Shown: positions 7,339-58,437, numbered from the stretch's first letter. The stretch: 64,000 nt of DNA from Nitrospinaceae bacterium (GCA_024644405.1 JAHELC010000001.1:8854-72853), one strand, 5' to 3'. The notes: generated by a model not told the origin, from the sequence alone. Translations and numbers: made by a program.

Positions 7339-9732
7339 TCAACATAAAATTGATTCCAAACGCTTCATTTTTTGGAAAACCGTACCATAAAAAGACGGAT
7401 AAAGTCGAAAAAGCTGGTTCAACTCCTGAATACTGATACCCACGGCCAATACCTGATCCGTATGAGCGATAGCCCGATCCGCTAATGGGACATGCTTCCA
7501 GTCTGGAATTTGCCCCATAATATCGCCACTTGACAGAAAAGCAATGTTTTTTGTGCCCTGCGGGCAGATTTTTACTTCCCCGGAAATGATGATGAAGACC
7601 TGCTCATCGTTCAAAACTTTGGCAAAAATAGGATCCTTTTTTTTCCAAAGACGCAGGTCCCCGAAACCCAGGGATGCGATCAGACCGGGACGTATTATGC
7701 TATTGAAATAATTGCCCAATTGATAAAATTCATCAATAATTCTCGGCAGGCTGGATTGGGTATAGAATTTTTTGGGAATTTTCAGAAGAGTCAGGTCCGA
7801 CAAGGCTTTGACGGTCGCCCGGCGGTGAGGGTTGGAGGTGGAAACAGCCAATTCCCCGAAAAACATCCCTTTCTCATAAACGACTGAATGGTTTTTATTA
7901 ATACCAATTTCCGCGAATCCGTCCAAAATCACGAAAAACTCATTTCCAATTTCATTTTTTGAAAAAACGACCGCTCCGGGTTTCAGTTTCTGGATTTTGG
8001 ATTGTTCCACAATTTTTGCCAGGTGGGATTTTTTAACGCCTTTGAACAAAACCACATCTTTGACCATATCCAGCTTGGTCCGAAGCTTGGGCTTCCTGCT
8101 TTTGATCAATACATCCGTTTTGCCTTCACGAGCAAACCGGAAATAAGGATGTTTGAACGGTTCCTTATGTTGGTGAACAAGCACTACTTTTTTGGCGAGA
8201 GAAGAATTAATGTGAGTCAGTGAAGCCAGTTCGGTGTGCAGGTTGCCTCCCCCCACTTCCTGAATAATCAAATCGGCATCCCAGACAAATCCTAAAATGC
8301 TGTCCCGCCGCTTTTGAGAAAAATTCCCCATTTCCCACCACCGATAGGTCAAATCCTCATCGTATTTGGTGTCTCCGGAATGACTGATTGCTATTTCGTT
8401 CCCTGCAGGCGGGCGATAAATCACCTTGAATCGCCCGGCGGGTATAGAATGCAGGGAGTAATCAAACAGCAGAAAAGTATTTTTGAAACCGGGCAGCTTG
8501 ATTTCACGGCCTGCCTCGACCTCCAGCAAATCGACAAATTCTTCGATCACTTCCTTGGGAAACCGGCTGATGCCTTGCACCTTCCTCAGAAAACTTTCAA
8601 AAATAATCCTCGTCGTGATTAATTTAATACGTTGACCCGAAAGAATTTTTTCGATCAAACCGGAGTCGTGATCGGAATGAACGTGCGATAGAATAATATA
8701 GTTGATATCCTTATCCGTAATCCCGTATTTCAAAGTGGACTCATTGTGCTCGTTGAAGGCATCCACCATAATGCCCTTGCCCTCCGACCAGACAATCAGG
8801 CAACTGTTTTTCCGTTTGTGCGAAAACCCTGAACCCACACCTAGATAGGTAACTCCCATGAAGGGTTTTTTCAACGGCGTCACGACTTCCGGCTTGGGAG
8901 GCAGGTCAGACTTCAACATATTGACAGAAAATTTGCGCCGGCCCGGGTGATGAATATCGAACTCTGCGGGTCGTACTTGGACAATCTTCAACGATTTCCC
9001 TTTATTGGCTGCATCTGTTATCGTGACCGCATTCTGTTTATTGAATATTTGAAAATCGATCAATGAGCCGATAAATTCATCATGGTTTTTTTCTTTGGCA
9101 ATGGAAAACAGTTCCATCTCTTTTTTTAACTGGGCGCAGGTAATATAGTTCCGGGCAAAGAGCGAAGCCGTTCGGGCATTGGTTTTATTCATCAACCATT
9201 GCTTGCCACGGATCAGGGTTTCAAAATATCCCCTGATCTCGGATTGAATCTGGCGGTCGGACGTGTTGTATTTGAGAAGGCGGTTGTACAGATCCAGCGG
9301 TTTTTTACTTTCCGCAACATGGTCCAAAAACAGTTCGTAACGCTTCGATTCCGTATTCGTAAACCCGCTTTCCCGGCCAAACCGGCGAAATTGAGCATGA
9401 ATCAGATTCCGGAAAACCGGGCCAAACAAGGTTTCCTGGAGAATGGATTTCAACCGGTCTCTCTGGTCGGCGGTACAGTAGACCTCGATCTTTTCGTGGG
9501 AGGGACGGGCAAAGAGAAACGTATAGACAATAAACTCGAAATCGAAGTTATTTTTTCCCTGAACAAAGGTTCTAATGGGCAGTACATATTTGGAGGGAAG
9601 CGCTTCGGACCGCCTGCTGAAATCCTTGACAATTCCCGGAGGGCATCCGAAGCAAATCGGATCGAATCCCTTGATCTCCAATACCCGAAAATTATACCCC
9701 CTGTATATGCTGTACCCTTTAGGATTTGCCAT
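7339..9732 (-). CDS. Large multidomain protein: unknown N-terminal domain + MBL-fold hydrolase + two cyclic-nucleotide-binding-like domains
   Basis: 797 aa. 'ILSHVHSDHDSG' is the HxHxDH metallo-beta-lactamase motif. 'FFGELAVSTSNPHRRATV' is a canonical cNMP phosphate-binding cassette. The second CAP-like domain has a degenerate cassette. I recognise no motif in the first ~290 aa. Confidence 0.7.
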   Translation of the reverse strand: MANPKGYSIYRGYNFRVLEIKGFDPICFGCPPGIVKDFSRRSEALPSKYVLPIRTFVQGKNNFDFEFIVYTFLFARPSHEKIEVYCTADQRDRLKSILQETLFGPVFRNLIHAQFRRFGRESGFTNTESKRYELFLDHVAESKKPLDLYNRLLKYNTSDRQIQSEIRGYFETLIRGKQWLMNKTNARTASLFARNYITCAQLKKEMELFSIAKEKNHDEFIGSLIDFQIFNKQNAVTITDAANKGKSLKIVQVRPAEFDIHHPGRRKFSVNMLKSDLPPKPEVVTPLKKPFMGVTYLGVGSGFSHKRKNSCLIVWSEGKGIMVDAFNEHNESTLKYGITDKDINYIILSHVHSDHDSGLIEKILSGQRIKLITTRIIFESFLRKVQGISRFPKEVIEEFVDLLEVEAGREIKLPGFKNTFLLFDYSLHSIPAGRFKVIYRPPAGNEIAISHSGDTKYDEDLTYRWWEMGNFSQKRRDSILGFVWDADLIIQEVGGGNLHTELASLTHINSSLAKKVVLVHQHKEPFKHPYFRFAREGKTDVLIKSRKPKLRTKLDMVKDVVLFKGVKKSHLAKIVEQSKIQKLKPGAVVFSKNEIGNEFFVILDGFAEIGINKNHSVVYEKGMFFGELAVSTSNPHRRATVKALSDLTLLKIPKKFYTQSSLPRIIDEFYQLGNYFNSIIRPGLIASLGFGDLRLWKKKDPIFAKVLNDEQVFIIISGEVKICPQGTKNIAFLSSGDIMGQIPDWKHVPLADRAIAHTDQVLAVGISIQELNQLFRLYPSFYGTVFQKMKRLESILC

Positions 9733-20924: not shown

Positions 20925-23336
20925 TCAGAAATCGTCTTCATCCTCTTTTTCAACTTCGACCAGGGGTAGAGTGGTGCACCGGATACTCACTCCGGGGTGT
21001 CTTTCGGCGGGATCAAAGGCGTTACGGAAATGGCATTTGGCGTTTACCAGATAATTGAGCCAGGATCCTCCGCGAACGATTTTCTGGGTGGTGAATTGGG
21101 AGGAATACAGCTGAACACACCATTCCCAGGCATTGCCGGCCATATCAAAGCATCCGTAGGGTGAAATCCCTTCTTCGAAATCCGTCACCGGGTTGGTGTG
21201 GCCGACCACGAAGTCGGCGGTATTGCAGTAACCGGTCTGGTACCCCATGGCTTCTCCCCAGGGGTAGTCGCGGCCATCGGTTCCACGCGAAGTTTTTTCC
21301 CATTCCGTTTCAGTCGGGAGCCGTAATCCCAACCACAACGCAAACACCGTGGCCTCGTAATAGTTGATGCCGATGACCGGTTGATCCTTGTTCCAAGAGT
21401 ACTTGGGATAACGGAGCTGGAACCGGGGATCGTACTGCTGGTACAGCTCGTTGGTGGCGAGGTATTTCATGATCGAAAATTCTTTCATGTCGATCTGGTC
21501 TTCCTCATCCTCTTCATCCTGGTAGATAAACTTTCCGGCCGGCACCGTGACCATCTCCGTCCATTTTTTAATAACTGCGGTGTCGACCGTTTTCGAATCA
21601 TTATGCTCATTCAAAAATCCCTGAAGGTCGGGCAACGCCAGTACGGCTTCAAAATTCTGGCTGTCGATGACTTCTTTCCAGTCGATCTTGTGAAGGGACA
21701 GCAACAGCTCGAGGACACCATAAAGTATTCTCGAGTCGCGCTTGTCCCGGTTGAGGAGGTTGCGAGCCAAGGTCTCGAGGCTGTTGCGGTCGTTTTGATC
21801 CAGCACCGCTGCCAGCCGCACCAACCGGTTTTTGGTAAACTGCGGTTGCGCTTCGGGACACTGGTATTTCAACAACTGGCCGACGATCAAACGGCGGTTT
21901 TCGGACACCGTTTCCATTTCCGCCAACACATGGCCCGCCAGGAACACCGCCCCTTCCTCCAGCAGGATGTCGACAAGGGTGTCCGGAGAAATGGAAGTGG
22001 TGCCCGCGAAAAACTGGAACAGATTCTGCCAGGAATCGTCGCGCCCGTGTTCCCGCAAAACCGGTTCCCACTCCGAGTCCCGGGCCAACGCCCGCCCCGC
22101 AAAATATTCCTGAAAGGAAGGATGACGAAACTCCCAGCGCGTGGGAGTTGTTTGGATCAACCGGTCAAAGGGAGCGCACACTCGACCGTCGGCATACAGC
22201 TTTTTGAGATGGGCGCCGCGGTCTTCAAAGATCTTCAATTCAAACCCCGTTTCCGCATCCTGCTGGCGTTGCCGATGGCCCTCCCGATACAAATGCAGGG
22301 AGATGTCTTCCAGAGTCTTCAGGCATTCCTGAACCTCCGCATCCGGTTTTATGGACTCCTTGCCGGCAAACGTTTCATCGATCCAGGCTCGGTACAATTG
22401 TGTCCGTGAGGTGACGTCTTCAAGTTTTTCGCAGTCCACCAACGACAGGATCATTTTCAAGAGCAGGGGATTTTGAAACAATTCCGGATAGAATAATTGA
22501 AACTTTTCCGCCTGGGGCTTGATCGAAGACGCAGGCAAAAAGTTCTTCCGTTGCAGGTCGCTGACGGGTTGAATGGCGACACGGAACGTTGAGTCCTGCC
22601 CCCGCTTGACGATTGAAGTGGTGGCAAAGGGTCCGAATCCGACCGGCCGGGCAGCGATCATCACAAAGTTATCGCGCAGGGCGTCGCCATCAACCACCAC
22701 GTCAAAATAAACCTGAAATCGGTCTTCCGGTATGAGCCGGTCAAACCCGTCGAGTAAAAAGAGAATCTGCCCGGTCAACACCAGACGATTAACAGTTCGC
22801 TCCAAAAGCGACTCCTCGATTTCCAGGTCCGGTTGCTCCTCCCGTTCCAGGAGAACCACGGCCATAACCTGCCGGTACAGCTCCGGGTAAAATTCGCGAA
22901 ACCCGGTGCCCTCCGGCAATTGCGACAGGTCAAAATAGACCGGCATGGGATATTCCCGGGTGGCTTCCGCCTGCAGGAGCCGCTCCAGATAAACCTGGAG
23001 AAAGGTGGTTTTTCCCATGCCCGAATCCGCTTCCAGCATGACTTTGGAGGTTTTGACATCGAGCAGGTTTTCGGTGACTTCACGGGGATTGTGGAACACC
23101 TGTTCCTGGAGGCTCTGACGATGCGTCACGGGATTCATATCGAGCAGAACCGGTTCAATATAAACCTCTTCTCCCCGGCCTTTGCCGAGAACGGCATCCA
23201 ATTCCGCCGTGATTTGCACGAGACGGTGCTTGCGGTAGGTGGCAATGACCCATTCCGGCGACTCCTCCGGCCGAACCTGGACCTCCGGAAGCTCCGCCTC
23301 CGGCCTTAAAATCGGTATATCCTTGCTTTCACTCAT
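20925..23336 (-). CDS. NACHT-type STAND NTPase with HEAT-like repeats and C-terminal FGE-sulfatase (SUMF1-like) domain
   Basis: 803 aa. Walker A is '[11 protein letters not shown]' and Walker B is '[11 protein letters not shown]'. '[12 protein letters not shown]' is NACHT-typical. The C-terminus has '[33 protein letters not shown]', 'YPWGE', 'GNAWEW' and 'RGGSW', which are FGE-sulfatase signatures. Confidence 0.78.
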
Positions 23337-48053: not shown

Positions 48054-48116
48054 ATCAAAAACCAGCTCTCCCATCATTCGATTTCTTCAAATACAGTTAG
48101 CCGTTAAATTAAAAAA

Positions 48117-48148
48117 GGCCCGTCCAAATCGGACGGGCCTTTTATTTT
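48117..48148. terminator. Bidirectional intrinsic terminator between convergent rpoZ and the cytochrome operon
   Basis: A perfect 9-bp GC-rich stem, GGCCCGTCC (48117-48125) / GGACGGGCC (48131-48139), has a 5-nt loop. It is flanked by AAAAAA (48111-48116) and TTTTATTTT (48140-48148). Confidence 0.85.
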
Positions 48149-48173: not shown

Positions 48174-49943
48174 CTACTTGACTTTACCCTCTGCGGCCAT
48201 TCTGCGCGTGCGTTTGGTCATCCACACCAACCACATCTGGAACCCGAAGAACGCCACCCCTAAGATGGGAGGCATGTAAAGCATGGAAGCAGGATCGGGC
48301 GGAACCAGAATGGTGTAATACCATGTGGAAATAGCCATATGTTCATCATGCTCCTTATCCCAACCGGACCATTGCAGAAAAGATACAGGCACAAAGGTCT
48401 GAACCGGAATCTGGACATCCGTCTTGTCCGGGTTCTCGGTTTTGAGAGAACGTTTGAACATGATTTTCACACGCCCCTGATGGTATTTGGAATTTACAAC
48501 CTGGACACCACCGGCGGTTTCTTTTTCAGTGATAGCATCAAAGCCCCTGCCCACCTGTTCCTGAACGGATACATCGAGATCGTATCCATTGGGTTCGGGT
48601 GCGTTGGTGTCGTTGTAATTCTTGACCATGAAGTTGGCCTTCCAGACATCGACAGGCTTCTTGGAATCGCCGTATATGAAATACGGTTTTTCCGCACCGA
48701 ACAGATCTTCCAGTTGACCCGGCCATTGCATGGCGACGCCATCGGGATAAGCCGGATCGATGGAAAGAAACCGGTTGTGGAATTCCACCAGGTAGTACAC
48801 CGCCTGCTCTTCTTCAGACCAGTTGGACATAACCCACAGGTTGTCAACTTTGGGCTTGAAGTTACGATCACCCCGGGTAATCTGACCGGCCATGGCCACA
48901 TAATGCCATTTCTGGTCTTCTTTACCGGTGTAGCCATCCGGACGCGATTTGATACCGGGATCGTCATCCGGGGCCTGCCACATGGGATCGCTCAAATCCG
49001 TCGAAACCGGACCCTCGGTAAACCTGGACTGAATCAGAAAATCCGGCACCGGTTTGTTGGTCAGCTTATCGATTTTCTTTCGAGGACACAGGGCATTGAC
49101 GAAAGCCGCCAGCTTCCAACGGTCTTCAATCGTAATCTTATCCTTGAAGTTCGGCATCGGCGTGCCGTTCAAACCGGTCGAAATGGTTCGAACAACGTTA
49201 AAAGGATCGTAGTGGTTTCGCCGGCTACCGCGGAAATTCCAGCATTGCTGCCAGTCCGCCGCGAATATCGGGAAACCCCAATCGTCTTTCATCGTCGGGT
49301 TACCGTCGCCGCGGCCTTCACCGCCGTGACATTCGAAACATTTGTTTTGCAGGAAAACTTCTTTCCCGGCATCGATGTCTTCCTGTGGAACTCCCAGGTG
49401 ATACGGACCCGTCGTTCCCCAGGGATTTTTACCAAAATCCTGAACGTAAACTTCTTCATCCTCGTCCGCAAAATCCCGGTCCTGAACCAGGGTTTTAACA
49501 AACTGAATAACGGAAACGATTTCCTCATTACTCAGCACTTCACCCCAGGGCGGCATCGCCGAACCCGGCAAACCATTTTTGACCGTATCGATCAGGTTTC
49601 GGTCCAAAGGCAGTTCACCCGAATCGGTCCAGCGGATTTTGAAAGTCCCCTGAATAAAGTTTCTGGGACGGGTGAACAAACGATCGGCCGATGGTCCATC
49701 GCCGCCACCTTCAACTCCATGACACCAGACGCAACGTTTGAAATAAACCCTTTTCCCGAGTTCCAGTTTGTCCTCCAGAACCGGATCCGGTGGTTGCGCT
49801 TCCTGCGCCAGAAGAGTCGACGGCAGACCCACTATCAACATTACCGCCAGTGCGACCAAGAAGTGCCTTACTGTTTTTCTAGGCTCCGTTAGCATAGCTC
49901 CCTCTTTATTTAAATATTTCAAAAATGAAATGATTGGATTCAT
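48174..49943 (-). CDS. Membrane-anchored dihaem cytochrome c fused to an EB_dh/NxrC-like (cytochrome c-552/DMSO-reductase-like haem-binding) domain
   Basis: 589 aa with an N-terminal TM/signal anchor. It has two CxxCH motifs (CVWCH, CFECH), each followed by an 'MP(P/N)' Met-ligand region. 'PDGVAMQWPG...PVDVWKANF' and 'PVSFLQWSGWDKEHDEHMAISTWY' resemble the EB_dh domain. A C-terminal TM helix follows. The start may be the internal MLTEPRK. Confidence 0.72.
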   Translation of the reverse strand: MNPIISFLKYLNKEGAMLTEPRKTVRHFLVALAVMLIVGLPSTLLAQEAQPPDPVLEDKLELGKRVYFKRCVWCHGVEGGGDGPSADRLFTRPRNFIQGTFKIRWTDSGELPLDRNLIDTVKNGLPGSAMPPWGEVLSNEEIVSVIQFVKTLVQDRDFADEDEEVYVQDFGKNPWGTTGPYHLGVPQEDIDAGKEVFLQNKCFECHGGEGRGDGNPTMKDDWGFPIFAADWQQCWNFRGSRRNHYDPFNVVRTISTGLNGTPMPNFKDKITIEDRWKLAAFVNALCPRKKIDKLTNKPVPDFLIQSRFTEGPVSTDLSDPMWQAPDDDPGIKSRPDGYTGKEDQKWHYVAMAGQITRGDRNFKPKVDNLWVMSNWSEEEQAVYYLVEFHNRFLSIDPAYPDGVAMQWPGQLEDLFGAEKPYFIYGDSKKPVDVWKANFMVKNYNDTNAPEPNGYDLDVSVQEQVGRGFDAITEKETAGGVQVVNSKYHQGRVKIMFKRSLKTENPDKTDVQIPVQTFVPVSFLQWSGWDKEHDEHMAISTWYYTILVPPDPASMLYMPPILGVAFFGFQMWLVWMTKRTRRMAAEGKVK

Positions 49944-49946
49944 GGA

Positions 49947-50957
49947 TTATTCCCCACCACCTGAAGAGGACTCTTCATCGAAGGTTCGCGGATGCCATCC
50001 GGTGTACCAGTACTCAAACAGGATGACCTTCCAGATTTCCTCCGTCTTCAAATGCTCTTCCCAAGGCGGCATCGCCGAGGACCACGGAGTCGATTCATTT
50101 GGCAATCCGGGACCGCCCTTGGAAACCCGCCAGAACAGGAAGGATTCACGCAACATGGCGATCGTTCCAGGATCGATGAAGTTTGCAGGGGTCGGGTTGA
50201 ACACATGGGAGAACATTCCCAGGCCGTTCAACTGGTCGCCGTGACAGTAATGACAGTTCTCAAAGAAAATGGTCCCGCCTTCCGTTACCGCTTTCATGTA
50301 CTCATGCTTGTCAGCATCCAGGAAGGGAAACTTGCCTTCAATTGGAAGGGCACTGCCACCGGGGCCGCCATCCACATAGTTGTCCTGCTCATCCGTTCGG
50401 AAGGGGTTCTGCAACCCTTCCAACGTATAGCTTTTACCATGCACCTTGGTGGTTGCCGGTGGCGCCGGATGGACTGTACGCAACTCAACCGGTTCTTCAA
50501 AGCGGGGTTGGAGAGACTTGTAGGTCGCCCCCATCACCAGAACGGGCAACGCAATAAACGTAATAATGCGCGCTATCTTGTAATCCCCAATGACGGTCTT
50601 GACGATGGGCTTTCTGAATTCCGCGAAGGTCACCGGATCCTGTGAAATATACAGGAAGGTACCGATGGTCCACAACATCATGTAAGTGATGAGCAGGGTC
50701 CACGGAATCGGCGGATACAACACCGCTTTATAGAAATACAAACCCATCAGCCAGACGGCCAGACCGTTCAGCGCGATGGGGGGTTTCAATTTTAAAACGA
50801 GGTTGAAACCGATACAGTAAGCCACAAATAACAGAAAGTAGACGTAGCGGTTGGCTACCCAGGAAAATTCCTTTGGCTGCATTTGTGGAAACAAACCATA
50901 GTGGAAAGCGGCCCAACCGACCACATATAAAATTATTCCTTTCACTACATTGTTCAT
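49947..50957 (-). CDS. Membrane protein (about 5 TM) with C-terminal monohaem cytochrome c domain
   Basis: 336 aa with five hydrophobic helices followed by 'FFENCHYCHGDQLNG' (CxxCH) and 'SAMPPWEEHL'. It lies 3 nt upstream of the next gene. Confidence 0.72.
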   Translation of the reverse strand: MNNVVKGIILYVVGWAAFHYGLFPQMQPKEFSWVANRYVYFLLFVAYCIGFNLVLKLKPPIALNGLAVWLMGLYFYKAVLYPPIPWTLLITYMMLWTIGTFLYISQDPVTFAEFRKPIVKTVIGDYKIARIITFIALPVLVMGATYKSLQPRFEEPVELRTVHPAPPATTKVHGKSYTLEGLQNPFRTDEQDNYVDGGPGGSALPIEGKFPFLDADKHEYMKAVTEGGTIFFENCHYCHGDQLNGLGMFSHVFNPTPANFIDPGTIAMLRESFLFWRVSKGGPGLPNESTPWSSAMPPWEEHLKTEEIWKVILFEYWYTGWHPRTFDEESSSGGGE

Positions 50958-50976
50958 CCCTTAAATCCCTCCTGGG

Positions 50977-52329
50977 TTAGCCTTCCGGCTGGGTGTTACT
51001 AATAAAATCCACCAACTTATCAAGCGCATTGACGGATAATTTGTTGGCGAAGTCCTGAGGCATCACGCCTTCCGGAAACGGCTCCCCGGCTTCTTCGTTG
51101 AACACGATATAAGCGTTGGGGTTCAGGATAGACTCCTTGACATAATCGCGCCCCGTCCTGGCTTTGCCTTTGTAATTCGGATCCTTGATCCGGTTGGGGG
51201 CGTTGATCTTTTCATGCAGTTTGGGTCCCAGCTCGCCCACCGCCCCTTCGATACCGGGAATGGTGTGACACAGCGGACAACCCAAGGTGTTGATCATGAC
51301 ATCGATCGGCTCCGTACCAGTTACAAAGGTTGGGGGCTCTACTTCTTCTCCACCGGCATCGGCTACAGGGGCATTATCCTCAGCCGTGGGAAGAGGAATC
51401 GTAACGGAGGCAAATTCACCCGGCGTGTCTTTCGACTGCAGCCAGGCGATAACCGCATTCAATTCAAATTTACCCAGACTGATCGGTGGTTTGCTGATCA
51501 CCGGCATCGGGCTCTTGGTATCGCCCGCCTTGCCATATCCCTTCACCACATAACAGGAAGGGCACATCAGCGACTCGCGCAGATAGTCTTCCCCGGTCAG
51601 CTCACTGGCATCCGCACGACGGTACTCTTCGGGAATCTGATCGGGTACGCCTTTCACGATACCCGTCGCCCCGTCCGCTTCACCGATCTTGATCGGCTCG
51701 TTCAGATAACGGTCTTCCTTGATCCGGGTGTGACTGCGTTCCTCGACACCGAACAGGTTGGGACAACGCCCGATATTGTCGCCGGGATCGAATGTATGGC
51801 AGAGAGGACACTGGCCTTTGCCGATCGATTTCTGACCGGCTACGGGTGGCGCGGAACCGAATACGATCACGCGTCCCATTTCCGTGTAGGACTCCATGGT
51901 CAAATCATCGACATTCACCGCGACAGCTTTGGGTGGAGGATCACTTCTTTGCTGCGGGAGCCAGTTGGTGTAACCGGCGAGAAGGATGGAAATGGTGCTG
52001 TAGAAAAATGCCGCCCGGATCAACGGGGGCGACTGATTTTCGATATTCTCACTCTTGAAGAATACCCCCCACGTGAGCAGGGTTAAAAACACCGCCAACA
52101 CCTGCCAGGAAATAAATCCCAGCTGCTGTTGCTGAGTCAGTTCGAACATGTGGTTGGTCAACAACAGATTGATGATGAATCCTGTGCCGAAAACCGTCCC
52201 CCAAACTACCGTGTTGGTTCCCTCGCGCTCCCGGCAATGCTGGATCACATTGATGAACGCAAACAGCGAGAATAACGTGAAGATAATGGTGACGAACGTC
52301 CACAGGATGTCTTGTTGTTCAGGAAGCAT
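50977..52329 (-). CDS. Membrane protein (about 4 TM) with two c-type haem-binding motifs
   Basis: 450 aa with four N-terminal hydrophobic helices followed by 'GQCPLCHTF' and 'LGCPLCHTIPG' (two CxxCH motifs). Confidence 0.72.
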   Translation of the reverse strand: MLPEQQDILWTFVTIIFTLFSLFAFINVIQHCREREGTNTVVWGTVFGTGFIINLLLTNHMFELTQQQQLGFISWQVLAVFLTLLTWGVFFKSENIENQSPPLIRAAFFYSTISILLAGYTNWLPQQRSDPPPKAVAVNVDDLTMESYTEMGRVIVFGSAPPVAGQKSIGKGQCPLCHTFDPGDNIGRCPNLFGVEERSHTRIKEDRYLNEPIKIGEADGATGIVKGVPDQIPEEYRRADASELTGEDYLRESLMCPSCYVVKGYGKAGDTKSPMPVISKPPISLGKFELNAVIAWLQSKDTPGEFASVTIPLPTAEDNAPVADAGGEEVEPPTFVTGTEPIDVMINTLGCPLCHTIPGIEGAVGELGPKLHEKINAPNRIKDPNYKGKARTGRDYVKESILNPNAYIVFNEEAGEPFPEGVMPQDFANKLSVNALDKLVDFISNTQPEG

Positions 52330-52386
52330 CCTTCTCTCCTATTCTTGGTATATTTAAAAAGTTAAACTCTTAACTCCAATAACCGA

Positions 52387-54360
52387 TTACTGCTGTTGCT
52401 GCGCCGGCACGGGAACGCCTTCCGGTACTTTTGCCGGAGTTTTCTTGCCGGTCAGACTACCGACCCAGAACACGATGACGAACTGCACCCATACAAACAG
52501 GGCGTTGAACGTCAGCATTTTACCCGCTTCACCAATGGTCAGCGTGTAAGCGTCCGGAGAGTTGTCACGCACCACTTCCGTGACATGCCAGAACAAGCGG
52601 ACGGCGGACCTGATATAGCCCATCAGGCCCATCAGCCACGTAAAGGAAATCGCCAGCAGGAAAATCGCGTAGGTGGCCACGCGCGACTGGGTTCCCCATT
52701 CAATATCGCCGTACGAATCGGCGTCCTTGAACATGGAGATATTGATCGCCGTGCCGGCGAACAGTGTCGTCAGCGTACTGGTCACCTGCGGTACCGAAAG
52801 TCCGACCCGCTGGTTCGCAGGCAGGAAGTATCCGTACACGCCGAGGAAAACAATGTTGGCCGCCGCGAAAACAAAGATGGCGGTGATCCAGGAATTTCCC
52901 TGCGTCGCCCAACTGACGTTGATCTTCTTGTTCGAGCGCTGGTACAGCAGAAAACAAAGAATGGTGGTGGTGATCATCAAATTCACCGCGGTGTTCTTGG
53001 CGGACATAACTCCAAAGTGGCCGACCACGGGATGCTGCGCTCCACCCATATCCTTCAACTCCGCCGGAGTCATAACGATGGTGTGCGGGGTCATCCACAT
53101 GGTGAAACAGACGATCAACAACAGAACCATGTATTTCGCGTATTTCATGTACCGGTGTGAACCCTTAACCCGGGACATGGAGTTGTGTAAGTAAGAGTTG
53201 GCTCCGAAGAACAGGAGACCGATCATGACCGCCTGAATGATAAACAGCCAGGCCATGATGCCGCCCATGAGGGTGATTCCCATCTGCTGACGGAAAGCGT
53301 AAACCTCTTTCATCAGCCAGTAGCCGGCGAACGGCAGGGGAATCAGACCGAAGATCGCGATGAACATCGCGATATAACACACCCAGTCATAGTGGGCTTT
53401 TTCTTCAGCCGTTTTGGCGGTGAGATAATGATAAGCCGCATACGCGCCAACGATACCACCGCCGAACACGATGTTGCCTAAAATACGATGGACCCCAACC
53501 GGGTTCCACAAGGTGGAATGAATGACGTGCCAGATATTACCCAGGAACCGGCCCTGCTCATCGATTCCGCCGGGCGCCTGCATAAAGGTCGCCCAGGAGT
53601 TGGCCAGATACATCAGAACCGTACCGACCAGGTTCAGGAGAACAGAAAGACTGCAGTGAATCCATTTCAGGAACGGATCGGCTTTCATTCTCTCCCAGCC
53701 ATAGTAATAAACGTACAAAATGCCGCTCTCCGCCAGGAACATCAGAGCGTACACATGCATGACCGGGCGGAATATACCGGCCATGTATTTGAAGAATCCC
53801 GGAAACAGCGTGATGAACGTAAACAGCAGAACACCACCGAGAATCGCCGTCCAGGAATAGGCGGTCAGGCTGACCTTCATCAGGTCCTGCGCCAGCTTGT
53901 CGTATTTCTCCGACAGAACCGGATCGCTTTCCTTTGTGCGGATCCCGACAAATTCGATGAGCATACAGAAAATCGGAACCGCCAGCACGAAACTCCCGAA
54001 ATAGAGATGCTGTTGGTTCGCCATCCAAAGCAGCATGCGGCTAGGCGCGAACTCATAGTTGTTGTAATCCGACTCTCCTAATTCCGGAGCGGGAAAACCG
54101 CTGACCGGACCTTTCAAAGGATTACCTTCCCAATCCTTATAGAAAACGTCCTGACTCCATTCGATAGCAGGCTCGCCACCTTCCTCCGCGCCTTCCTCAG
54201 CGAGGACTTCTTTCGCGAAAGCCTCTTCCGCGAAAGCCTGTTCCGCAAATACCTCTTTGGCGAAAGCTTGACCGCTCAGGCCCGGAACAATAAACAGAGT
54301 CACTGCCAGAACAAGCGCCAAGGGGAGCCACTTGATGTTTCTAGCTTCAGAATTAAACAT
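52387..54360 (-). CDS. Cytochrome bd-like oxidase (CydA-family subunit I homolog, extended, no CydB partner)
   Basis: 657 aa. CydA-like motifs are 'MANQQHLYFGSFVLAVPIF' (His in TM1), 'ANSWATFMQAPGG' and 'LWNPVGVHRILGNIVFGG'. It has about 13 hydrophobic segments plus a signal peptide. The N-terminal acidic pentapeptide repeats are (Q/E)(A/V)FA(K/E). Confidence 0.8.
   Translation of the reverse strand: MFNSEARNIKWLPLALVLAVTLFIVPGLSGQAFAKEVFAEQAFAEEAFAKEVLAEEGAEEGGEPAIEWSQDVFYKDWEGNPLKGPVSGFPAPELGESDYNNYEFAPSRMLLWMANQQHLYFGSFVLAVPIFCMLIEFVGIRTKESDPVLSEKYDKLAQDLMKVSLTAYSWTAILGGVLLFTFITLFPGFFKYMAGIFRPVMHVYALMFLAESGILYVYYYGWERMKADPFLKWIHCSLSVLLNLVGTVLMYLANSWATFMQAPGGIDEQGRFLGNIWHVIHSTLWNPVGVHRILGNIVFGGGIVGAYAAYHYLTAKTAEEKAHYDWVCYIAMFIAIFGLIPLPFAGYWLMKEVYAFRQQMGITLMGGIMAWLFIIQAVMIGLLFFGANSYLHNSMSRVKGSHRYMKYAKYMVLLLIVCFTMWMTPHTIVMTPAELKDMGGAQHPVVGHFGVMSAKNTAVNLMITTTILCFLLYQRSNKKINVSWATQGNSWITAIFVFAAANIVFLGVYGYFLPANQRVGLSVPQVTSTLTTLFAGTAINISMFKDADSYGDIEWGTQSRVATYAIFLLAISFTWLMGLMGYIRSAVRLFWHVTEVVRDNSPDAYTLTIGEAGKMLTFNALFVWVQFVIVFWVGSLTGKKTPAKVPEGVPVPAQQQQ
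54196..54270 (-). repeat. Five tandem 15-nt units inside the 5' end of the bd-like oxidase gene
   Basis: The plus-strand units are ctcagcgaggacttc / tttcgcgaaagcctc / ttccgcgaaagcctg / ttccgcaaatacctc / tttggcgaaagcttg. They encode QAFAK-EVFAE-QAFAE-EAFAK-EVLAE just after the signal peptide. Confidence 0.85.
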
Positions 54361-54731
54361 TGCCTAACCTCCTTAAGGGGATCTCTGGGTATCCTGGGAT
54401 TTTCAATTCAAACCGGTATATTTTCAAACTTGTATTTCCAAATTGTTTCAGCGTTTTCAAGTCAAGTCCTCAGAACCTTGCTCGCCTCATTATTTTCTCT
54501 CAAAAGGCAACCCGGGGGGACAATTTTTTCCCCTGATTGCGTCTACGGCTTGAGAGCGCAACGACCGTAATACTCTAACTCACTGGCCTTAAAGGACTTG
54601 CGGCGACGGTGAGATTGGCGCACTTCCTCTCCATCTAAACAAAAAGTCGCAGATATTTACCATAAAGGACTGAAAGCTGTCAAGAGAATTTCTATAGATT
54701 CAAAACTCAGGTTTTTTCAACGAGAAACACC

Positions 54732-56015
54732 TCAAGACAACCTGACTTGAACGGCCTTCGAATGGGCGTCCAGGTTCTCCATTTCCGCCAGAATCCGGCA
54801 GGTTTTTCCGTTTTTTGCCAGGGCCTGCCGGCTGTAACTGATCAAACTGGTCCGCTTGATAAAATCATAAACACCCAGCGGGGATGAAAACCGGGCCGTG
54901 CCGCTGGTGGGCAGCACATGGTTGGGTCCCGCGAGGTAATCGCCGATGGCTTCCGGAGTGTAATGTCCCAGAAAAATAGCTCCGGCGTTTTTGATTTGTC
55001 TCGCGCATTCCTGGGGATTCGCCACTGCCAGTTCCAAATGCTCCGGTGCAATCCGGTTCGCCACATCCAGGGCTTCATCCAGCGAAGCCGTCACGATCAA
55101 CCGGCATTTGGCGCTCAACGATTTTTCAATAATCGCGGTACGCTTCAACTGCTTTTTCTGCTTCTCCAATTCCTCGAGCGTGGCCTGGGCCAGGGACTCT
55201 GAAGGGGTCACCAGAATCGGTACCGCCTCCTCATCATGTTCTGCCTGCGACAGCAAATCCGCGGCGATAAAATCGGGACGCGCCGAATCATCGGCCACCA
55301 CCAGGATTTCGCTGGGGCCGGCGATCATGTCGATATCCACCAGACCGAACACCATGCGTTTCGCCAGCGCCACGTAAATATTGCCGGGACCGACAATCTT
55401 GTCGACACGGGGTATGATGTCGGTTCCCAAAGCCATGGCGGCCACCGCCTGCGCACCCCCCACCTTGAAGATCCGGTTCACCCCGGCAATATCCGCCGCC
55501 ACCAGCGCATGCGGGCTGACTTCCCCTTTGGGCGTGGGCGAACACATGATCACCTGCTCGACCCCCGCCACCCGCGCGGGAACGGCGTTCATCAATACCG
55601 AGGAAGGATACGACGCTTTGCCGCCCGGCACATATATGCCCACGATGGCCAACGGACGCACCGCCTGTCCAAGGGTGACCTCCGCTTCTTGATACTCCCA
55701 GGATTCCTGGACCTGCCGCGCGTGGAACCGTTCGATGTTGTCCGCCGCCAGCTTCATGGCGTCCAGCTCCGCCAGGTCCACCTGGTTGTAAGCCTCCTGT
55801 ATTTCTTCCGGCTGGACTTCAAGATCGCTCAACTGGTAATCGGTGTGGTCAAACTGGTTGGTGAACTTGAGCAGGGCGGCATCGCGGTCTGTCTTGATCG
55901 CCTCCAGAATCGCCCGGACGGTCTGGTCCTGCGATTGAAAATCCACATCGCAGCGATCCACCAGCGCATCGATTTCCTGCGCATAAGTATCGTCACTGTA
56001 TTTGATAATGTTCAT
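54732..56015 (-). CDS. hisD: Histidinol dehydrogenase
   Basis: It starts at MNIIKY (ATG 56013-56015), overlapping the upstream stop (ATGA). 'GIYVPGGKASYPSSVLMNAVPARVAGV', 'GPGNIYVALAK' and 'SQAEHDEEA' are HisD signatures. Confidence 0.93.
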   Translation of the reverse strand: MNIIKYSDDTYAQEIDALVDRCDVDFQSQDQTVRAILEAIKTDRDAALLKFTNQFDHTDYQLSDLEVQPEEIQEAYNQVDLAELDAMKLAADNIERFHARQVQESWEYQEAEVTLGQAVRPLAIVGIYVPGGKASYPSSVLMNAVPARVAGVEQVIMCSPTPKGEVSPHALVAADIAGVNRIFKVGGAQAVAAMALGTDIIPRVDKIVGPGNIYVALAKRMVFGLVDIDMIAGPSEILVVADDSARPDFIAADLLSQAEHDEEAVPILVTPSESLAQATLEELEKQKKQLKRTAIIEKSLSAKCRLIVTASLDEALDVANRIAPEHLELAVANPQECARQIKNAGAIFLGHYTPEAIGDYLAGPNHVLPTSGTARFSSPLGVYDFIKRTSLISYSRQALAKNGKTCRILAEMENLDAHSKAVQVRLS

Positions 56016-56707
56016 ATCTTTGATTCGAGGTGTAACTGATTTAAAAATTCCAGGGTCGTTCGCCCCTCTTTCAGGAGACCGGAATGGGCCATCCATTCCA
56101 AATGGGTTTTCAGGAAGCGAAGGTCTTCCGGAAGATCGACATCATACCACACGGGCAACAGCTCGGCTTCTGTCCGTTGATCCTTCAACGCCTGCAAAGT
56201 TTCCGACAGGACACGGTCGGTTCCCCAGGCCACGCCATCAAAAATATCGGTCACTTTTGCCCGCATGCCAATCAGGTAATACCCGCCGTCGGTGCTGGGC
56301 CCGATCACGACCTCCTTCTCCGATAGCAGAGCCTGCTCAATGTAGGTCGCGGGCAACGTCGGGCTGTCGGAACCGATGATCACCACGCGCTCGTATCCTT
56401 CCTTGAAACGATCCTCAAACGCCTGCCGCATCCGCTCCCCCAGGTCCCTCCCCTTCTGCACAAAAAGACGGACCGGATGGCTCCGGGCCACTTCATCGAA
56501 ATAGCCGGTTTCCGGATCGGAAGCCATCCCGATAAAACGGTCCGCTTCTGCGACGGAACAAATCTTATCTATGCTGTCCCTCAGGAAATGACGGTACAGG
56601 CTTAAAACGGTGGGATCATCCAGAAGCGAGCTCAATCGGGTTTTCACCTGACCCGCCACCGGGTCCTTCGCAAACAGGATCAAAGCCCGGGCGGAGTCTT
56701 GCGTCAT
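56012..56707 (-). CDS. DUF2064 / TIGR04282-family glycosyltransferase-like protein
   Basis: 231 aa. 'ALILFAKDPVAGQVKTRL', 'VIIGSDSPTL' and 'GPSTDGGYYLIGM' are typical of DUF2064 proteins. Confidence 0.75.
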   Translation of the reverse strand: MTQDSARALILFAKDPVAGQVKTRLSSLLDDPTVLSLYRHFLRDSIDKICSVAEADRFIGMASDPETGYFDEVARSHPVRLFVQKGRDLGERMRQAFEDRFKEGYERVVIIGSDSPTLPATYIEQALLSEKEVVIGPSTDGGYYLIGMRAKVTDIFDGVAWGTDRVLSETLQALKDQRTEAELLPVWYDVDLPEDLRFLKTHLEWMAHSGLLKEGRTTLEFLNQLHLESKI

Positions 56708-56823
56708 TGCAGGATACTCTCCATATAATAAATGAATTGACTCATACCTTTAATCTCCCTAGACTTGATCCGATTTTGAACCAAACCGAAACACCTGCCT
56801 TTTACTTCCCGTACCGGAGCTTT

Positions 56824-58437
56824 ATGGATTTCGACACCGCGGTATTCTACTGGATCAAGGAACATTTGCAATCCCAGTCCCTGGACATCTGGGTAGCAAT
56901 ATTCACCGACAAAAACAATTACCTGATCCCTATCTTCGCCACCATTGCCGCCTTTCTGATATTGAGGAAAAAGCAAGGCTTGTGGTTCGTCATCGTTGTC
57001 CTTTTGGCAATTTTCACCAACGATTTTCTCATTCACCAGATTCTGAAACCCCTGTTCGCCCGGACCCGCCCCTGCCATGTTCTGGAAATCCTGAATGGTG
57101 TTTCCTGCACCCACTCTTTTTCGTTTCCCTCCGTGCAGGCGGGCAACCTGTTTGCTTTCGCCACGGTCTTCGCTCTTTTTTTCAGAGGCTCCGCCTGGGT
57201 GGTGTTCCCCCTGGCATTTCTGGGTAGTTTCACCCGTGTCTACCTCGGCGTCCATTACCCCACGGATATACTGGCAGGGGGCCTGTGTGGTGTTATAATG
57301 GGGATTCTGTTTTGCCGGCTGTACCGGTTATTGTTTCCTTCGTATGAATTTCACCGACCGACCCCGGTTATGAAGCAATCCCCCAAAAACATCCTGATCA
57401 TCAAACTCAGTTCACTGGGTGATGTGATCCACGCTCTGCCGTCGCTCCGCACCCTGCGTCAATTTTATCCTCAGGCCCACATCGCCTGGATCGTCGAAGA
57501 AAAGTGCAAAGACCTGCTCTACAACAATCCCGATCTGGACGAGTTGATCGTGGTGCGCATCCGTCACTGGCGCCGTCACTGGAACCGGCAAAGCTGGCGG
57601 GAATTCAAGAACAGCCTGAAACGGATCCGCGGCCGCTTCGATCTGGTCATCGACATGCAGGGACTGATCAAAACCGGCGTCATCGCCTTCCTCACCCAGG
57701 CGCCGCGCGTGATCGGCTTTGACAAACGCGACTGCCGGGAGCGCCCCAGCGCCTGGTTCACTCACGAAAAAATTCCCTTTATGGGAAAGAAAGTTCATGT
57801 GGTCGACCGGTATCTGGCGATGATCCAGGCGCTGGGCGCCGCAACGGTTTCCAGGGAGTTTCCGCTGGTGGTTCCGGAAGCCGCCGAGGCACATATCGAG
57901 GCCTACTGGAAAGCCAACCCGGAACTGCCGGCGAAGCCCATCGTTGCCATTCATCATGGCGTCGGGTTCCCCACCAAGCGCTGGCCGATGGAACGGTTCG
58001 CCCAACTGGGAGACCACATCGTGAAGGAACTGGGGTTCAATGTTCTGCTCACCTGGGGACCCGGCGAGGAAGAATCGGTGAAAAAACTTTCCGATATAAT
58101 GAAGGAGAAGCATTGGGTGTCTCCCAAAAATACACTGCACGAATCGATCGCCATGCTCAAACGGATGAGCATGTGCATCGGGTGCGATACCGGGCCGATG
58201 CACCTGTCGGCGGCGCAGGGGGTGCCGACGGTGTCGCTGTTCGGGCCGACAAATCCGGTCTACAGCCGCCCGCACGGCAGCAATCATGAAGTGGTCGTCA
58301 AACTCCAGCCCTGCAGTTTCTGCCACAAGCACCGTTGTCCGACGCAGATCGAATGCATGACCGCCATCACGGTGGAAGACGTTTTTTCCGCCGTGCAAAA
58401 AAGCGCGCAGGATCACGTAAACGCGCGCACCTCCTGA
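56824..58437 (+). CDS. Fusion protein: PAP2-family phosphatase-like membrane domain + family-9 glycosyltransferase (heptosyltransferase I, WaaC-like)
   Basis: A single ORF with no stop between the two halves. PAP2 motifs are 'KPLFARTRP' (Kx6RP), 'SFPSVQAG' (the PSGH position, His replaced) and 'TRVYLGVHYPTD' (Rx5Hx3D). GT9 motifs are 'ILIIKLSSLGDVIHALPSLRTL...HIAWIVEE' and 'GCDTGPMHLSAA'. I set the start at ATG 56824. The track uses the TTG at 56707. An in-frame internal ATG lies at 57370. Confidence 0.75.
   Translation: MDFDTAVFYWIKEHLQSQSLDIWVAIFTDKNNYLIPIFATIAAFLILRKKQGLWFVIVVLLAIFTNDFLIHQILKPLFARTRPCHVLEILNGVSCTHSFSFPSVQAGNLFAFATVFALFFRGSAWVVFPLAFLGSFTRVYLGVHYPTDILAGGLCGVIMGILFCRLYRLLFPSYEFHRPTPVMKQSPKNILIIKLSSLGDVIHALPSLRTLRQFYPQAHIAWIVEEKCKDLLYNNPDLDELIVVRIRHWRRHWNRQSWREFKNSLKRIRGRFDLVIDMQGLIKTGVIAFLTQAPRVIGFDKRDCRERPSAWFTHEKIPFMGKKVHVVDRYLAMIQALGAATVSREFPLVVPEAAEAHIEAYWKANPELPAKPIVAIHHGVGFPTKRWPMERFAQLGDHIVKELGFNVLLTWGPGEEESVKKLSDIMKEKHWVSPKNTLHESIAMLKRMSMCIGCDTGPMHLSAAQGVPTVSLFGPTNPVYSRPHGSNHEVVVKLQPCSFCHKHRCPTQIECMTAITVEDVFSAVQKSAQDHVNARTS

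What the first reader, a model, noticed from the sequence alone, without database searches (positions are those of the whole stretch)
48174..54360. Four-gene operon: CydA-like 'bd-like' oxidase without CydB, plus three membrane-anchored c-type cytochromes, one fused to an EB_dh/NxrC-like haem-b domain
Seen in sequence:
- Four co-directional minus-strand genes (54360 down to 48174) are separated by only 57, 19 and 3 nt.
- A 371-nt upstream intergenic region and a perfect 9-bp-stem bidirectional terminator (48117-48148) bound the unit.
- Gene 1 (657 aa) has CydA-type motifs: His in TM1 ('QQHLYFG'), 'NSWATFMQAPGG' and 'WNPVGVHRILGN'. It has about 13 hydrophobic segments rather than the 9 of CydA.
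- No cydB/cydX-like gene follows gene 1.
- Genes 2-4 carry 2 + 1 + 2 CxxCH motifs. Each has its own TM helices (about 4, about 5, and one at each end).
- Gene 4 ends in a domain resembling the EB_dh (ethylbenzene dehydrogenase gamma / NxrC-like) haem-b domain.

Established knowledge: CydB-less 'cytochrome bd-like oxidases' and NxrC-like EB_dh proteins have been pointed out in nitrite-oxidiser and anammox genomes. To my knowledge their biochemical function is unresolved.

Inference: this looks like a self-contained membrane respiratory module with 5 c-haems, b-haems and roughly 24 TM helices. Its donor and acceptor cannot be read from the sequence. Candidates include an oxidase, a quinol:cytochrome c module, or nitrite/N-oxide-linked electron transfer.
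Basis: partly seen in the sequence, partly recalled or inferred. Interest (0 to 1): 0.72.

Follow-up and report, generated by a model that had tools for sequence, protein, structure and literature searches.

The report
Known bd-like oxidase/cytochrome c operon
This is a real four-gene membrane electron-transport operon of a marine nitrite-oxidising bacterium (family Nitrospinaceae), but the same gene cluster was already described in Nitrospina, Nitrospira, anammox and manganese-oxidising bacteria, and its biochemical job (probably passing nitrite-derived electrons to oxygen) is still unproven.

Summary
Four co-directional minus-strand genes (54360 to 48174) lie between a conserved promoter-like site and a bidirectional terminator.
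- g1 is a CydA-derived protein with about 13 TM helices and no Q-loop and no CydB partner.
- g2 is a membrane-anchored dihaem cytochrome c, homologous to Kuenenia Kustd1711.
- g3 is a membrane-anchored monohaem cytochrome c.
- g4 is a dihaem cytochrome c fused to an NxrC/EbdC-fold domain with a C-terminal TM anchor.

The order g1-g2-g3-g4 is kept in every one of 83 related Nitrospinota/Nitrospirota loci that has enough sequence, bar one apparent paralogue. Fusions of g1-like and g2-like proteins exist.

It is not new. It is the 'OR-N2' operon of Murali 2021. It is also the 'bd-like + alt_NxrC' cluster of Lücker 2013, Mundinger 2019 and Mueller 2021, kustd1712-1709 of Kuenenia, and 'TO_1' of Manganitrophus. 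No biochemical characterisation of the complex was found.

My best reading (about 0.45) is a cytochrome-c/NXR-fed terminal oxygen reductase. The main rival is a reverse-electron-transport quinone reductase.

One small addition: the canonical Met/Lys haem-b ligands of NxrC are not conserved in g4, so its b-haem is unproven.

Interest is low to moderate: an important open question, but a known object.

The parts
54654..54684 (-). Promoter-like site. The -35 is CTTGACA (54678-54684). A TGnTAAATA-type -10 lies about 18 nt downstream. This implies a 5' UTR of about 290 nt.
   Evidence: CTTGACA is kept in all 10 aligned Nitrospinaceae upstream regions that reach this position, N. gracilis included. 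The simple consensus scan did not flag it, so the -10 assignment is inference.
52387..54360 (-). g1: OR-N2-type 'cytochrome bd-like oxidase' (CydA-derived, 657 aa). It has a signal peptide, a periplasmic N-terminal stretch of about 70 aa, and about 13 TM helices. There is no Q-loop.
   Evidence: PF01654 at 4.7e-20 over the N-terminal half only. The only PDB relative is a CydA, 9r2g_A. 86-98% identical to Nitrospina proteins and about 61% to Nitrospira proteins. The signature residues match the published OR-N2 row. Helices are read from the AF2 secondary structure at pLDDT 52.8.
50977..52329 (-). g2: dihaem cytochrome c (CPLCH at residues 174 and 351) behind an N-terminal domain of about four hydrophobic segments. 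It is a homologue of Kuenenia Kustd1711.
   Evidence: CxxCH motifs and hydropathy (the strict window found 2 segments, the other two are read by eye). PDB 7zs0_A 'Hypothetical (Diheme) protein' at 8e-8, which I take to be Kustd1711 (PMC11791136). g1-g2 fusion proteins P0241, P0253 and P0244 exist.
49947..50957 (-). g3: monohaem cytochrome c (CHYCH at residue 235) behind about five N-terminal hydrophobic segments.
   Evidence: PF13442 at 2.5e-6. CxxCH motif and hydropathy. 46% identical to the syntenic Nitrospira gene.
48174..49943 (-). g4: 'alternative NxrC'. From the N terminus it has a signal/anchor helix, a dihaem cytochrome c module (CVWCH 71, CFECH 202), an EB_dh/NxrC-fold beta-sandwich (about residues 300-550) and a C-terminal TM helix (553-584). 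The likely true start is Met17 at 49895.
   Evidence: Pfam and NCBIfam. 6h5l_B at 4.6e-40 for residues 59-290. Profile hit to 7b04_C at 4.5e-5. Foldseek hits to 6h5l_B, 7b04_C and 2ivf_C. Start codon.
48113..48143 (.). Bidirectional intrinsic terminator that closes the operon.
   Evidence: Stem of 13-14 pairs (8 G-C) with T-runs on both strands. Sequence read directly.

Best explanation
WHAT IT IS (near certain). This is the Nitrospinaceae copy of a conserved four-subunit membrane complex. The literature names it the OR-N2 operon, the bd-like_3/alt_NxrC_2 cluster, kustd1712-1709, or TO_1.

HOW IT MOST LIKELY WORKS (inferred; the steps below are not shown experimentally).
1. Electrons from periplasmic nitrite oxidation by NXR, at about +0.4 V, enter through g4. 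They enter either by direct docking of g4's NxrC-like domain onto NXR or via soluble cytochrome c.
2. They run along five periplasmic c-haems held at the membrane surface by the TM anchors of g4, g3 and g2.
3. They reach a b558-like haem in g1 (His291, probably Met452).
4. They then reach the haem on the His19 equivalent (His118), inside the retained CydA four-helix bundle.
5. There O2 is reduced, using protons drawn from the cytoplasm through the partly retained channel (Glu211, His235). Charge separation across the membrane would then generate proton-motive force.

In short, it would be a cytochrome-c/NXR-fed bd-type terminal oxygen reductase that has lost its quinol site.
For: Identity:
- Gene order and content are kept in 71 of 83 loci. 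Eleven of the other twelve are cut short by the end of the fetched sequence and one looks like a paralogue.
- The same unit is present in Ca. N. bockiana and N. gracilis.
- g1 matches the OR-N2 reference residues. [quoted passage not shown]
- g2 resembles Kustd1711.

Physical association:
- Natural g1-g2 fusion proteins exist.
- Gaps between the genes are short, there is one conserved promoter-like element and one terminator.

Oxidase reading:
- The equivalents of His19, Glu107, His126 and His186 are conserved family-wide, and that of Met393 in most members.
- The Q-loop is absent, so quinol is not the donor (Lücker 2013).
- Kustd1711 haems sit at +350 mV, which suits a nitrite-to-O2 chain.
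- Ca. [quoted passage not shown] Other Nitrospinae, including those of oxygen-minimum zones and sediments, lack the cbb3-type oxidase and also the terminal oxidase proposed for Nitrospira.
- The cluster is among the 40 most transcribed genes of N. moscoviensis.
- TO_1 is the highest-expressed oxidase candidate (98th percentile) in the aerobic Mn(II) oxidiser Manganitrophus, where it is discussed without any link to nitrite oxidation.
Against: - No enzymology exists for any member.
- The cluster is conserved inside the nxr gene cluster of strictly anaerobic anammox bacteria. An O2 reductase is hard to rationalise there.
- The Glu445 (haem b595) ligand and Glu99 are replaced. There is no CydB/CydA' partner next to g1 to form the canonical haem d/b595 interface.
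- Mueller 2021 notes that two of the proposed Cu/haem ligands are replaced in this paralogue.
- Mundinger 2019 favours reverse electron flow for this paralogue and assigns oxidase function to another one.
- No NXR genes lie in this window.
- The g1 structure model is too poor to inspect sites.
Confidence: 0.45

Rival explanations
1. Reverse-electron-transport module. The complex would take nitrite-derived electrons from NXR or cytochrome c and push them uphill into the quinone pool at the expense of proton-motive force. It would be functionally like an alternative complex III or bc1 complex run backwards, supplying reductant for CO2 fixation.
For: - It is the function shared by all nitrite-oxidising owners, including anaerobic anammox bacteria, where the cluster sits in the nxr locus.
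- It was proposed by Lücker 2013 and by Mundinger 2019, who cites Kartal 2013.
- g1 has extra TM helices with family-wide conserved charged residues (Glu434, Lys455, Arg518, Arg584, Arg588) that could form an ion path.
Against: - No quinone site can be recognised: the Q-loop and its quinol-binding residues are gone.
- There are no NrfD-like, Rieske or cytochrome b subunits in the operon.
- With a periplasmic NXR and haems at about +350 mV, a simple redox loop cannot drive quinone reduction. A true reverse pump would be needed (inference).
- These organisms already encode bc-type complexes proposed for that job.
- The module is also highly expressed in Manganitrophus as TO_1, where other complexes carry the quinone-interacting parts.
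Confidence: 0.25
2. Non-catalytic membrane anchor and electron hub for NXR. g4 would tether soluble NxrABC to the membrane. The c-haems and g1 b-haems would merely distribute electrons to separate partners (a distinct oxidase, the bc complex), with no substrate chemistry in g1.
For: - NxrC of Nitrospina is predicted to be soluble, although NXR is membrane-associated, so an extra anchor is needed.
- g4 has the NxrC fold plus a TM helix.
- Transcript levels are lower than for nxrAB, which fits a sub-stoichiometric docking site.
Against: - g1 is the most conserved subunit: 61% identical across phyla, against 33-46% for g2-g4. It keeps the oxygen-site and proton-channel residues. That is unexpected for a passive scaffold.
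- The module also occurs and is highly expressed in a Mn(II) oxidiser, where it is described as an oxidase candidate and not linked to NXR.
- The canonical haem-b ligands through which an NxrC-type subunit relays electrons from NxrB are not conserved in g4.
Confidence: 0.15
3. Reductase or detoxifier for a nitrogen oxide (NO or nitrite) rather than O2, using the bd-type haem site.
For: - Canonical bd oxidases interact with NO (cited).
- The module is kept in anammox bacteria, whose metabolism runs through NO.
- The dihaem module of g4 is closest to Kustc0457, the partner of an HAO-like reductase.
Against: - There is no direct evidence.
- High constitutive expression in aerobic lithotrophs fits core respiration better.
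Confidence: 0.07

Closest known systems
OR-N2 subfamily operon of the cytochrome bd superfamily (Murali, Gennis & Hemp 2021)
   Same: - 14-helix CydA-like protein without a quinol site.
- The signature residues are the same.
- The operon carries multiple cytochromes c and an EbdC homologue.
   Different: Nothing substantive. This is a Nitrospinaceae orthologue, 61% identical to a Nitrospira protein that matches the published OR-N2 reference row. The family itself has never been characterised biochemically.
Nitrospina gracilis / Nitrospira 'cytochrome bd-like oxidase + two cytochromes c + alternative NxrC' cluster (Lücker 2010/2013; Mundinger 2019 bd-like_3/alt_NxrC_2; Mueller 2021)
   Same: - The four genes and their order are the same.
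- In N. gracilis even the flanking genes are the same: hisD, DUF2064 and PAP2-GT9 on one side, threonine aldolase, porin and amt on the other.
   Different: - 70-84% identical to the N. gracilis proteins in tblastn; the N. gracilis g4 orthologue is 75% identical by BLASTP.
- Nitrospira carries a second bd-like paralogue a few genes away. This window has none.
Kuenenia stuttgartiensis nxr-cluster genes kustd1712 (cydA-like), 1711 (dihaem, PDB 7ZS0, +350 mV), 1710 (monohaem), 1709 (dihaem)
   Same: - The sequence of gene types is the same.
- g2 is a detectable homologue of Kustd1711.
- The g4 domains find Kuenenia structures as their best matches.
   Different: - In Kuenenia the genes lie inside the nxr cluster. 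Here no nxr gene is in the window.
- Kustd1711 is described as a soluble protein with a signal peptide. g2 has an N-terminal domain of about four TM helices.
- The host is a strict anaerobe.
Ca. Manganitrophus 'TO_1' terminal-oxidase complex (Yu & Leadbetter)
   Same: A bd-like oxidase, two cytochromes c and a periplasmic (CISM-type) cytochrome b, highly expressed.
   Different: - The host oxidises Mn(II), not nitrite.
- Orthology to this window rests on the paper's description. I did not retrieve that locus.
Canonical cytochrome bd quinol oxidase CydABX
   Same: N-terminal four-helix bundle and TM5, with the equivalents of His19, Glu107, His126 and His186.
   Different: No Q-loop, no CydB or CydX, about 13 TM helices instead of 9, Glu445 and Glu99 replaced, and cytochrome c partners instead of quinol.
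NxrC / EbdC (type II DMSO-reductase gamma subunits, haem b)
   Same: Same beta-sandwich fold: Foldseek 7b04_C at 8e-10 and 2ivf_C at 1.4e-9 with target TM-score 0.71.
   Different: - It is fused to a dihaem cytochrome c module and a TM anchor.
- Ligand Met155 aligns to Tyr/Met/Phe/Trp and ligand Lys305 aligns to Met.
- It is not adjacent to catalytic subunits.

Membership tests
Canonical cytochrome bd quinol oxidase (CydAB) | CydA fold (PF01654) over its full length, 9 TM helices | tested here: not met
   Only profile positions 2-239 of 418 match. PDB and hhalign matches stop after TM5. About 13 TM helices.
Canonical cytochrome bd quinol oxidase (CydAB) | Haem ligands His19, His186, Met393 and Glu445 | tested here: inconclusive
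   His118 and His291 are secure. Met452 is supported only by MAFFT and the published table. Glu445 aligns to Gln525 or Ser585, never to Glu.
Canonical cytochrome bd quinol oxidase (CydAB) | Periplasmic Q-loop with the quinol-binding residues (Lys252, Glu257) | tested here: not met
   The region is replaced by hydrophobic helices and has no alignable Q-loop. The same is stated by Lücker 2013.
Canonical cytochrome bd quinol oxidase (CydAB) | CydB (and CydX) subunit encoded with CydA | tested here: not met
   tblastn of E. coli CydB and CydX against the window gives nothing below E = 0.25. The gene after g1 is a cytochrome c.
OR-N2 subfamily (Murali et al. 2021) | Signature residues of the reference row: H186, M393/N, S for E445, H19, Y for E99, E107, L for S140, H126, W441 and others | tested here: met
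   P0104 matches all 15 reference positions. Mapped onto g1, 13 are identical and 2 are conservative changes (I to L, I to A).
OR-N2 subfamily (Murali et al. 2021) | About 14 TM helices and no quinol site | tested here: met
   N-terminal helix plus about 13 TM helices. There is no Q-loop.
OR-N2 subfamily (Murali et al. 2021) | Operon with multiple cytochromes c and an EbdC homologue, and no second cydA-like gene required | tested here: met
.
OR-N2 subfamily (Murali et al. 2021) | Oxygen reductase activity (implied by the family name) | not testable with these tools
   No biochemical data were found in the library.
NxrC / EB_dh haem-b subunit | EB_dh beta-sandwich fold | tested here: met
   Foldseek hits to 7b04_C/O and 2ivf_C at about 1e-9. 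Profile hit to 7b04_C at 4.5e-5. Orthologues carry PF09459. The protein's own Pfam score is below the cut-off.
NxrC / EB_dh haem-b subunit | Met/Lys axial ligands of haem b (KsNxrC Met155 and Lys305) | tested here: not met
   The HMM alignment puts Met155 opposite Tyr424, which is Tyr/Met/Phe in Nitrospinota and Trp in Nitrospira. It puts Lys305 opposite Met536. The alignment is weak but is anchored by the invariant G-D motif.
NxrC / EB_dh haem-b subunit | Encoded with, and bound to, the molybdoenzyme alpha/beta subunits | tested here: not met
   No nxrA/B-like gene was found among the ORFs scanned in the window. Physical binding is not testable here.
Alternative complex III | NrfD-like quinol-interacting subunits (ActC/F) and an FeS subunit (ActB) | tested here: not met
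   None of the four proteins hits such families. Only the cytochrome c domains weakly resemble ActE.
Haem-copper oxidase | COX1-type subunit I with the full set of CuB and haem ligands | tested here: not met
   There is no COX1 Pfam hit. Mueller 2021 reports that a CuB His is replaced by Gln and the high-spin haem His by Phe in this paralogue. g1 has Gln442-His443.

The most novel reading that the evidence does not exclude
The complex would be the long-sought energy-conserving terminal oxidase of most marine Nitrospinae, working as a direct nitrite:oxygen oxidoreductase supercomplex. The g4 NxrC-like domain has swapped the canonical Met/Lys haem-b ligands, so it carries a differently ligated haem or none. 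It would dock onto NxrAB in place of, or beside, NxrC, so that nitrite electrons never leave a protein-bound wire before reaching a copper-free, CydB-free bd-type O2 site.
Probability: 0.15. Interest if true: 0.8.

Novelty: already known. Interest (0 to 1): 0.3.

Why it matters
How nitrite oxidisers with a periplasmic NXR conserve energy is unresolved. So is the enzyme that lets marine Nitrospinae lacking any haem-copper oxidase respire oxygen at nanomolar levels. This operon is one of the very few candidates, so its biochemistry matters for the marine nitrogen cycle.

The present finding only re-identifies the known candidate in one more Nitrospinaceae genome. It does not by itself make the question more testable. 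The fusion proteins and the ligand analysis give small new handles.

Tried and rejected
- An AF2 model of g1 from a 40-sequence alignment came out at pLDDT 52.8 and pTM 0.47. That is too poor for a fold search or site inspection, so I used it only for helix counting.
- An alignment with distant representatives (A2) was too divergent for the genome scan. The closer alignment (A1) returned only Nitrospinota and Nitrospirota among the best 80 of at least 596 loci. I therefore could not retrieve anammox or Manganitrophus loci, and I rely on papers for those.
- The metagenome scan with P0391 (whose source names include Manganitrophaceae) returned paralogues that are not followed by g2-g4. One contig (L086) carries both the paralogue and a full four-gene unit.
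- hhalign and PDB profile searches could not extend the CydA alignment past TM5. The Met393 and Glu445 equivalences therefore stay tentative. I first mis-assigned Glu445 to Arg518 and corrected this after checking E. coli numbering.
- Rfam found nothing in the 5' UTR or the operon except terminator look-alikes.
- Glycosyltransferase-9 and nucleotidyltransferase-like genes lie next to the module in both phyla. The similarity is only family-level (26% identity), so I do not count them as part of the module.
- A search for any biochemical or cryo-EM characterisation of the complex found none.

Full report
OBSERVATION. The four minus-strand ORFs exist exactly where stated: g1 52387-54360 (657 aa), g2 50977-52329 (450 aa), g3 49947-50957 (336 aa) and g4 48174-49943 (589 aa). 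The gaps are 57, 19 and 3 nt. CxxCH motifs number 0, 2, 1 and 2. The upstream spacer to hisD is 371 nt. A hairpin at 48113-48143 scores as an intrinsic terminator on both strands. Each gene has a Shine-Dalgarno sequence. For g4 the better site precedes Met17 (49895). That start gives a database protein that is 100% identical over the whole of its 573 aa, so the g3-g4 gap is probably 51 nt. The rest of the window encodes housekeeping, flagellar and transport genes. It holds no NXR, no second bd-like gene, and no cydB or cydX.

THE PROTEINS: g1. g1 passes the Pfam CydA model (72 bits against a cut-off of 26.2), but only over its N-terminal half. Its only relative with a solved structure is a CydA, again over TM1-5 only. 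Alignment to E. coli CydA gives these equivalences:
- His19 to His118
- Glu107 to Glu211
- His126 to His235
- His186 to His291
- Glu99 to Tyr204
- Met393 to Met452 (tentative)
- Glu445 to a non-acidic residue

These rest. There is no Q-loop. Helix prediction from a low-confidence AF2 model gives an N-terminal signal peptide (AFA|KE) and about 13 TM helices. Across distant paralogues the conserved set is His118, His235, His291, His426, His443, Met452, His592, Glu434, Lys455, Arg518, Arg584 and Arg588.

THE PROTEINS: g2, g3 and g4. g2 is a dihaem cytochrome c behind about four TM helices. It is a detectable homologue of PDB 7ZS0 (8e-8). I take 7ZS0 to be Kuenenia Kustd1711, whose haems sit at about +350 mV. 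g3 is a monohaem cytochrome c behind about five TM helices. g4 has four parts: a signal/anchor helix; a dihaem module closest to Kuenenia Kustc0457 (6h5l_B, 4.6e-40); a beta-sandwich; and a C-terminal TM helix. The beta-sandwich's family profile finds only Kuenenia NxrC in the PDB (4.5e-5). Its AF2 model (C-terminal domain pLDDT about 80-90) matches NxrC and EbdC at about 1e-9. The EB_dh assignment is therefore sound, although this protein's own Pfam score is sub-threshold.

CONSERVATION. g1 has close relatives (86-98% identity) in Nitrospina/Nitrospinaceae and relatives at about 61% in Nitrospira, so the window comes from a member of the Nitrospinaceae. A scan of species-representative genomes found at least 596 g1-like loci. 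The best 80 were all Nitrospinota or Nitrospirota. In 71 of the 83 loci examined, homologues of g2, g3 and g4 follow g1 in the same order. Eleven of the other twelve are cut short by the end of the fetched sequence, and one (L073) looks like a paralogue. Identity across the two phyla is 61% for g1 but only 33-46% for g2-g4. N. gracilis has the same flanking genes as this window. Some database proteins fuse a g1-like body to a g2-like cytochrome c domain (P0241, P0253, P0244). These fusions are independent evidence that g1 and g2 work in one complex.

WHAT IS ALREADY KNOWN. This exact unit is in the literature.
- Lücker et al. 2013 describe, for N. gracilis, Nitrospira and Kuenenia, a conserved set. 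It includes an alternative NxrC, a mono- and a dihaem cytochrome c and a 'conspicuous cytochrome bd-like oxidase' with 14 helices. The haem-b ligands are kept and the Q-loop is replaced. They suggest an ACIII-like role in reverse electron transport.
- Mundinger et al. 2019 show that the Nitrospira cluster (bd-like_3, alt_NxrC_2 and two cytochromes c) is among the 40 most transcribed genes.
- Mueller et al. 2021 describe the cluster in the Nitrospinae. They stress that Ca. [quoted passage not shown] Bayer et al. 2021 likewise report that other Nitrospinae, including those of oxygen-minimum zones and sediments, lack the cbb3-type oxidase.
- Murali et al. 2021 classify the CydA-like protein as OR-N2 and state the operon content. 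g1 matches their signature row.
- In Kuenenia the genes are kustd1712-1709.
- In the Mn(II) oxidiser Manganitrophus the equivalent 'TO_1' is the most highly expressed oxidase candidate.

I found no biochemical or structural study of the complex itself.

MECHANISM. Shown here: the domain composition, the periplasmic placement of all five c-haem sites implied by the TM and signal topology, the retention of the N-terminal CydA bundle residues, the loss of the quinol loop, and tight conservation as a unit.

Inferred: electrons at about +0.4 V enter via g4 and pass along the c-haems to g1. I favour O2 reduction at the His118 haem, with cytoplasmic proton uptake (0.45). Three points support this. 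The oxygen-site and channel residues are what selection has kept. Several aerobic owners have no other oxidase. The module is highly expressed in aerobic lithotrophs that use very high-potential donors, and one of them is a Mn(II) oxidiser.

The main rival (0.25) is pmf-driven quinone reduction. It explains the anammox copies, but it lacks any recognisable quinone site or pump module. A passive NXR anchor or hub (0.15) and an N-oxide reductase (0.07) remain possible.

A SMALL NEW POINT. KsNxrC binds haem b through Met155 and Lys305. In the profile alignment Met155 falls on g4 Tyr424. That position is Tyr, Met or Phe in Nitrospinota and Trp in Nitrospira. Lys305 falls on a nearly invariant Met536. 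The canonical ligand pair is thus not conserved. The 'b-haem' of alt_NxrC is an assumption, and the domain may bind haem differently or serve as a docking module. The alignment is weak, so a structure is needed.

VERDICT. The finding is real and correctly interpreted, but it is already known as a genomic entity. It bears on an important open question without advancing it much. Novelty: already known. Interest: 0.3.

Noticed in passing
window 54654-54684 (minus strand) and 54361-54650: A CTTGACA -35-like element about 320 nt upstream of the g1 start is kept in all 10 aligned Nitrospinaceae upstream regions that reach it. The roughly 290 nt between it and the invariant AAGGAGGT Shine-Dalgarno are not conserved between subclades. 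This suggests a long 5' UTR of unknown role. It has no Rfam match.
   Followed up: partly
window 54181-54270 (g1 residues about 31-60): After a Sec-type signal peptide, g1 carries acidic AFAxE-type repeats (AFAKEVFAEQAFAEEAFAKEVLAEE). They are present in Nitrospinaceae orthologues but absent from Nitrospira ones.
   Followed up: no
proteins P0241, P0253 and P0244 (representative library): These are natural fusions of a g1-like bd-like protein with a C-terminal CxxCH-containing extension. In P0241 and P0253 the extension is g2-like. In P0241 (889 aa) the CxxCH motifs are at 677 and 814, and the extension matches g2 at E = 4e-19.
   Followed up: partly
window 49895-49943: g4 has two candidate starts. 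Met17 (49895) has the stronger Shine-Dalgarno sequence and is the start used in a database protein 100% identical over the whole of its 573 aa. About half of the homologues are annotated from the longer start.
   Followed up: yes
L001 4453-6339; L086 9049-10689: Nitrospira-type loci carry a second bd-like paralogue (about 43-47% identical to g1) a few genes from the four-gene unit. It has no cytochrome c partners of its own. No such paralogue is in this window.
   Followed up: partly
window 20925-23336 (minus strand); L001 7392-9290: An 803-aa NACHT plus FGE-sulfatase-domain protein lies in the window. In Ca. N. bockiana, two FGE-sulfatase-domain genes sit between the two bd-like genes. This may be coincidence.
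   Followed up: no
window 56012-58437; L001 16233-17850: A DUF2064/nucleotidyltransferase-like gene and a glycosyltransferase-9 gene (here fused to PAP2) lie next to the module in both Nitrospinaceae and Nitrospira. The similarity is only family-level (26% identity for GT9; E = 0.012 for the other).
   Followed up: partly
window 7339-9732 (minus strand) and 575-2209 (minus strand): The first is a 797-aa protein that combines a metallo-beta-lactamase domain with a cyclic-nucleotide-binding domain. The second is a 544-aa ORF with no Pfam match at E <= 1e-5.
   Followed up: no
g1 compared with g2-g4 across loci L005-L084: g1 is 59-64% identical between Nitrospinota and Nitrospirota, while its three partners are only 30-49% identical. 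This fits the horizontal transfer proposed in the literature, with much stronger constraint on g1.
   Followed up: partly
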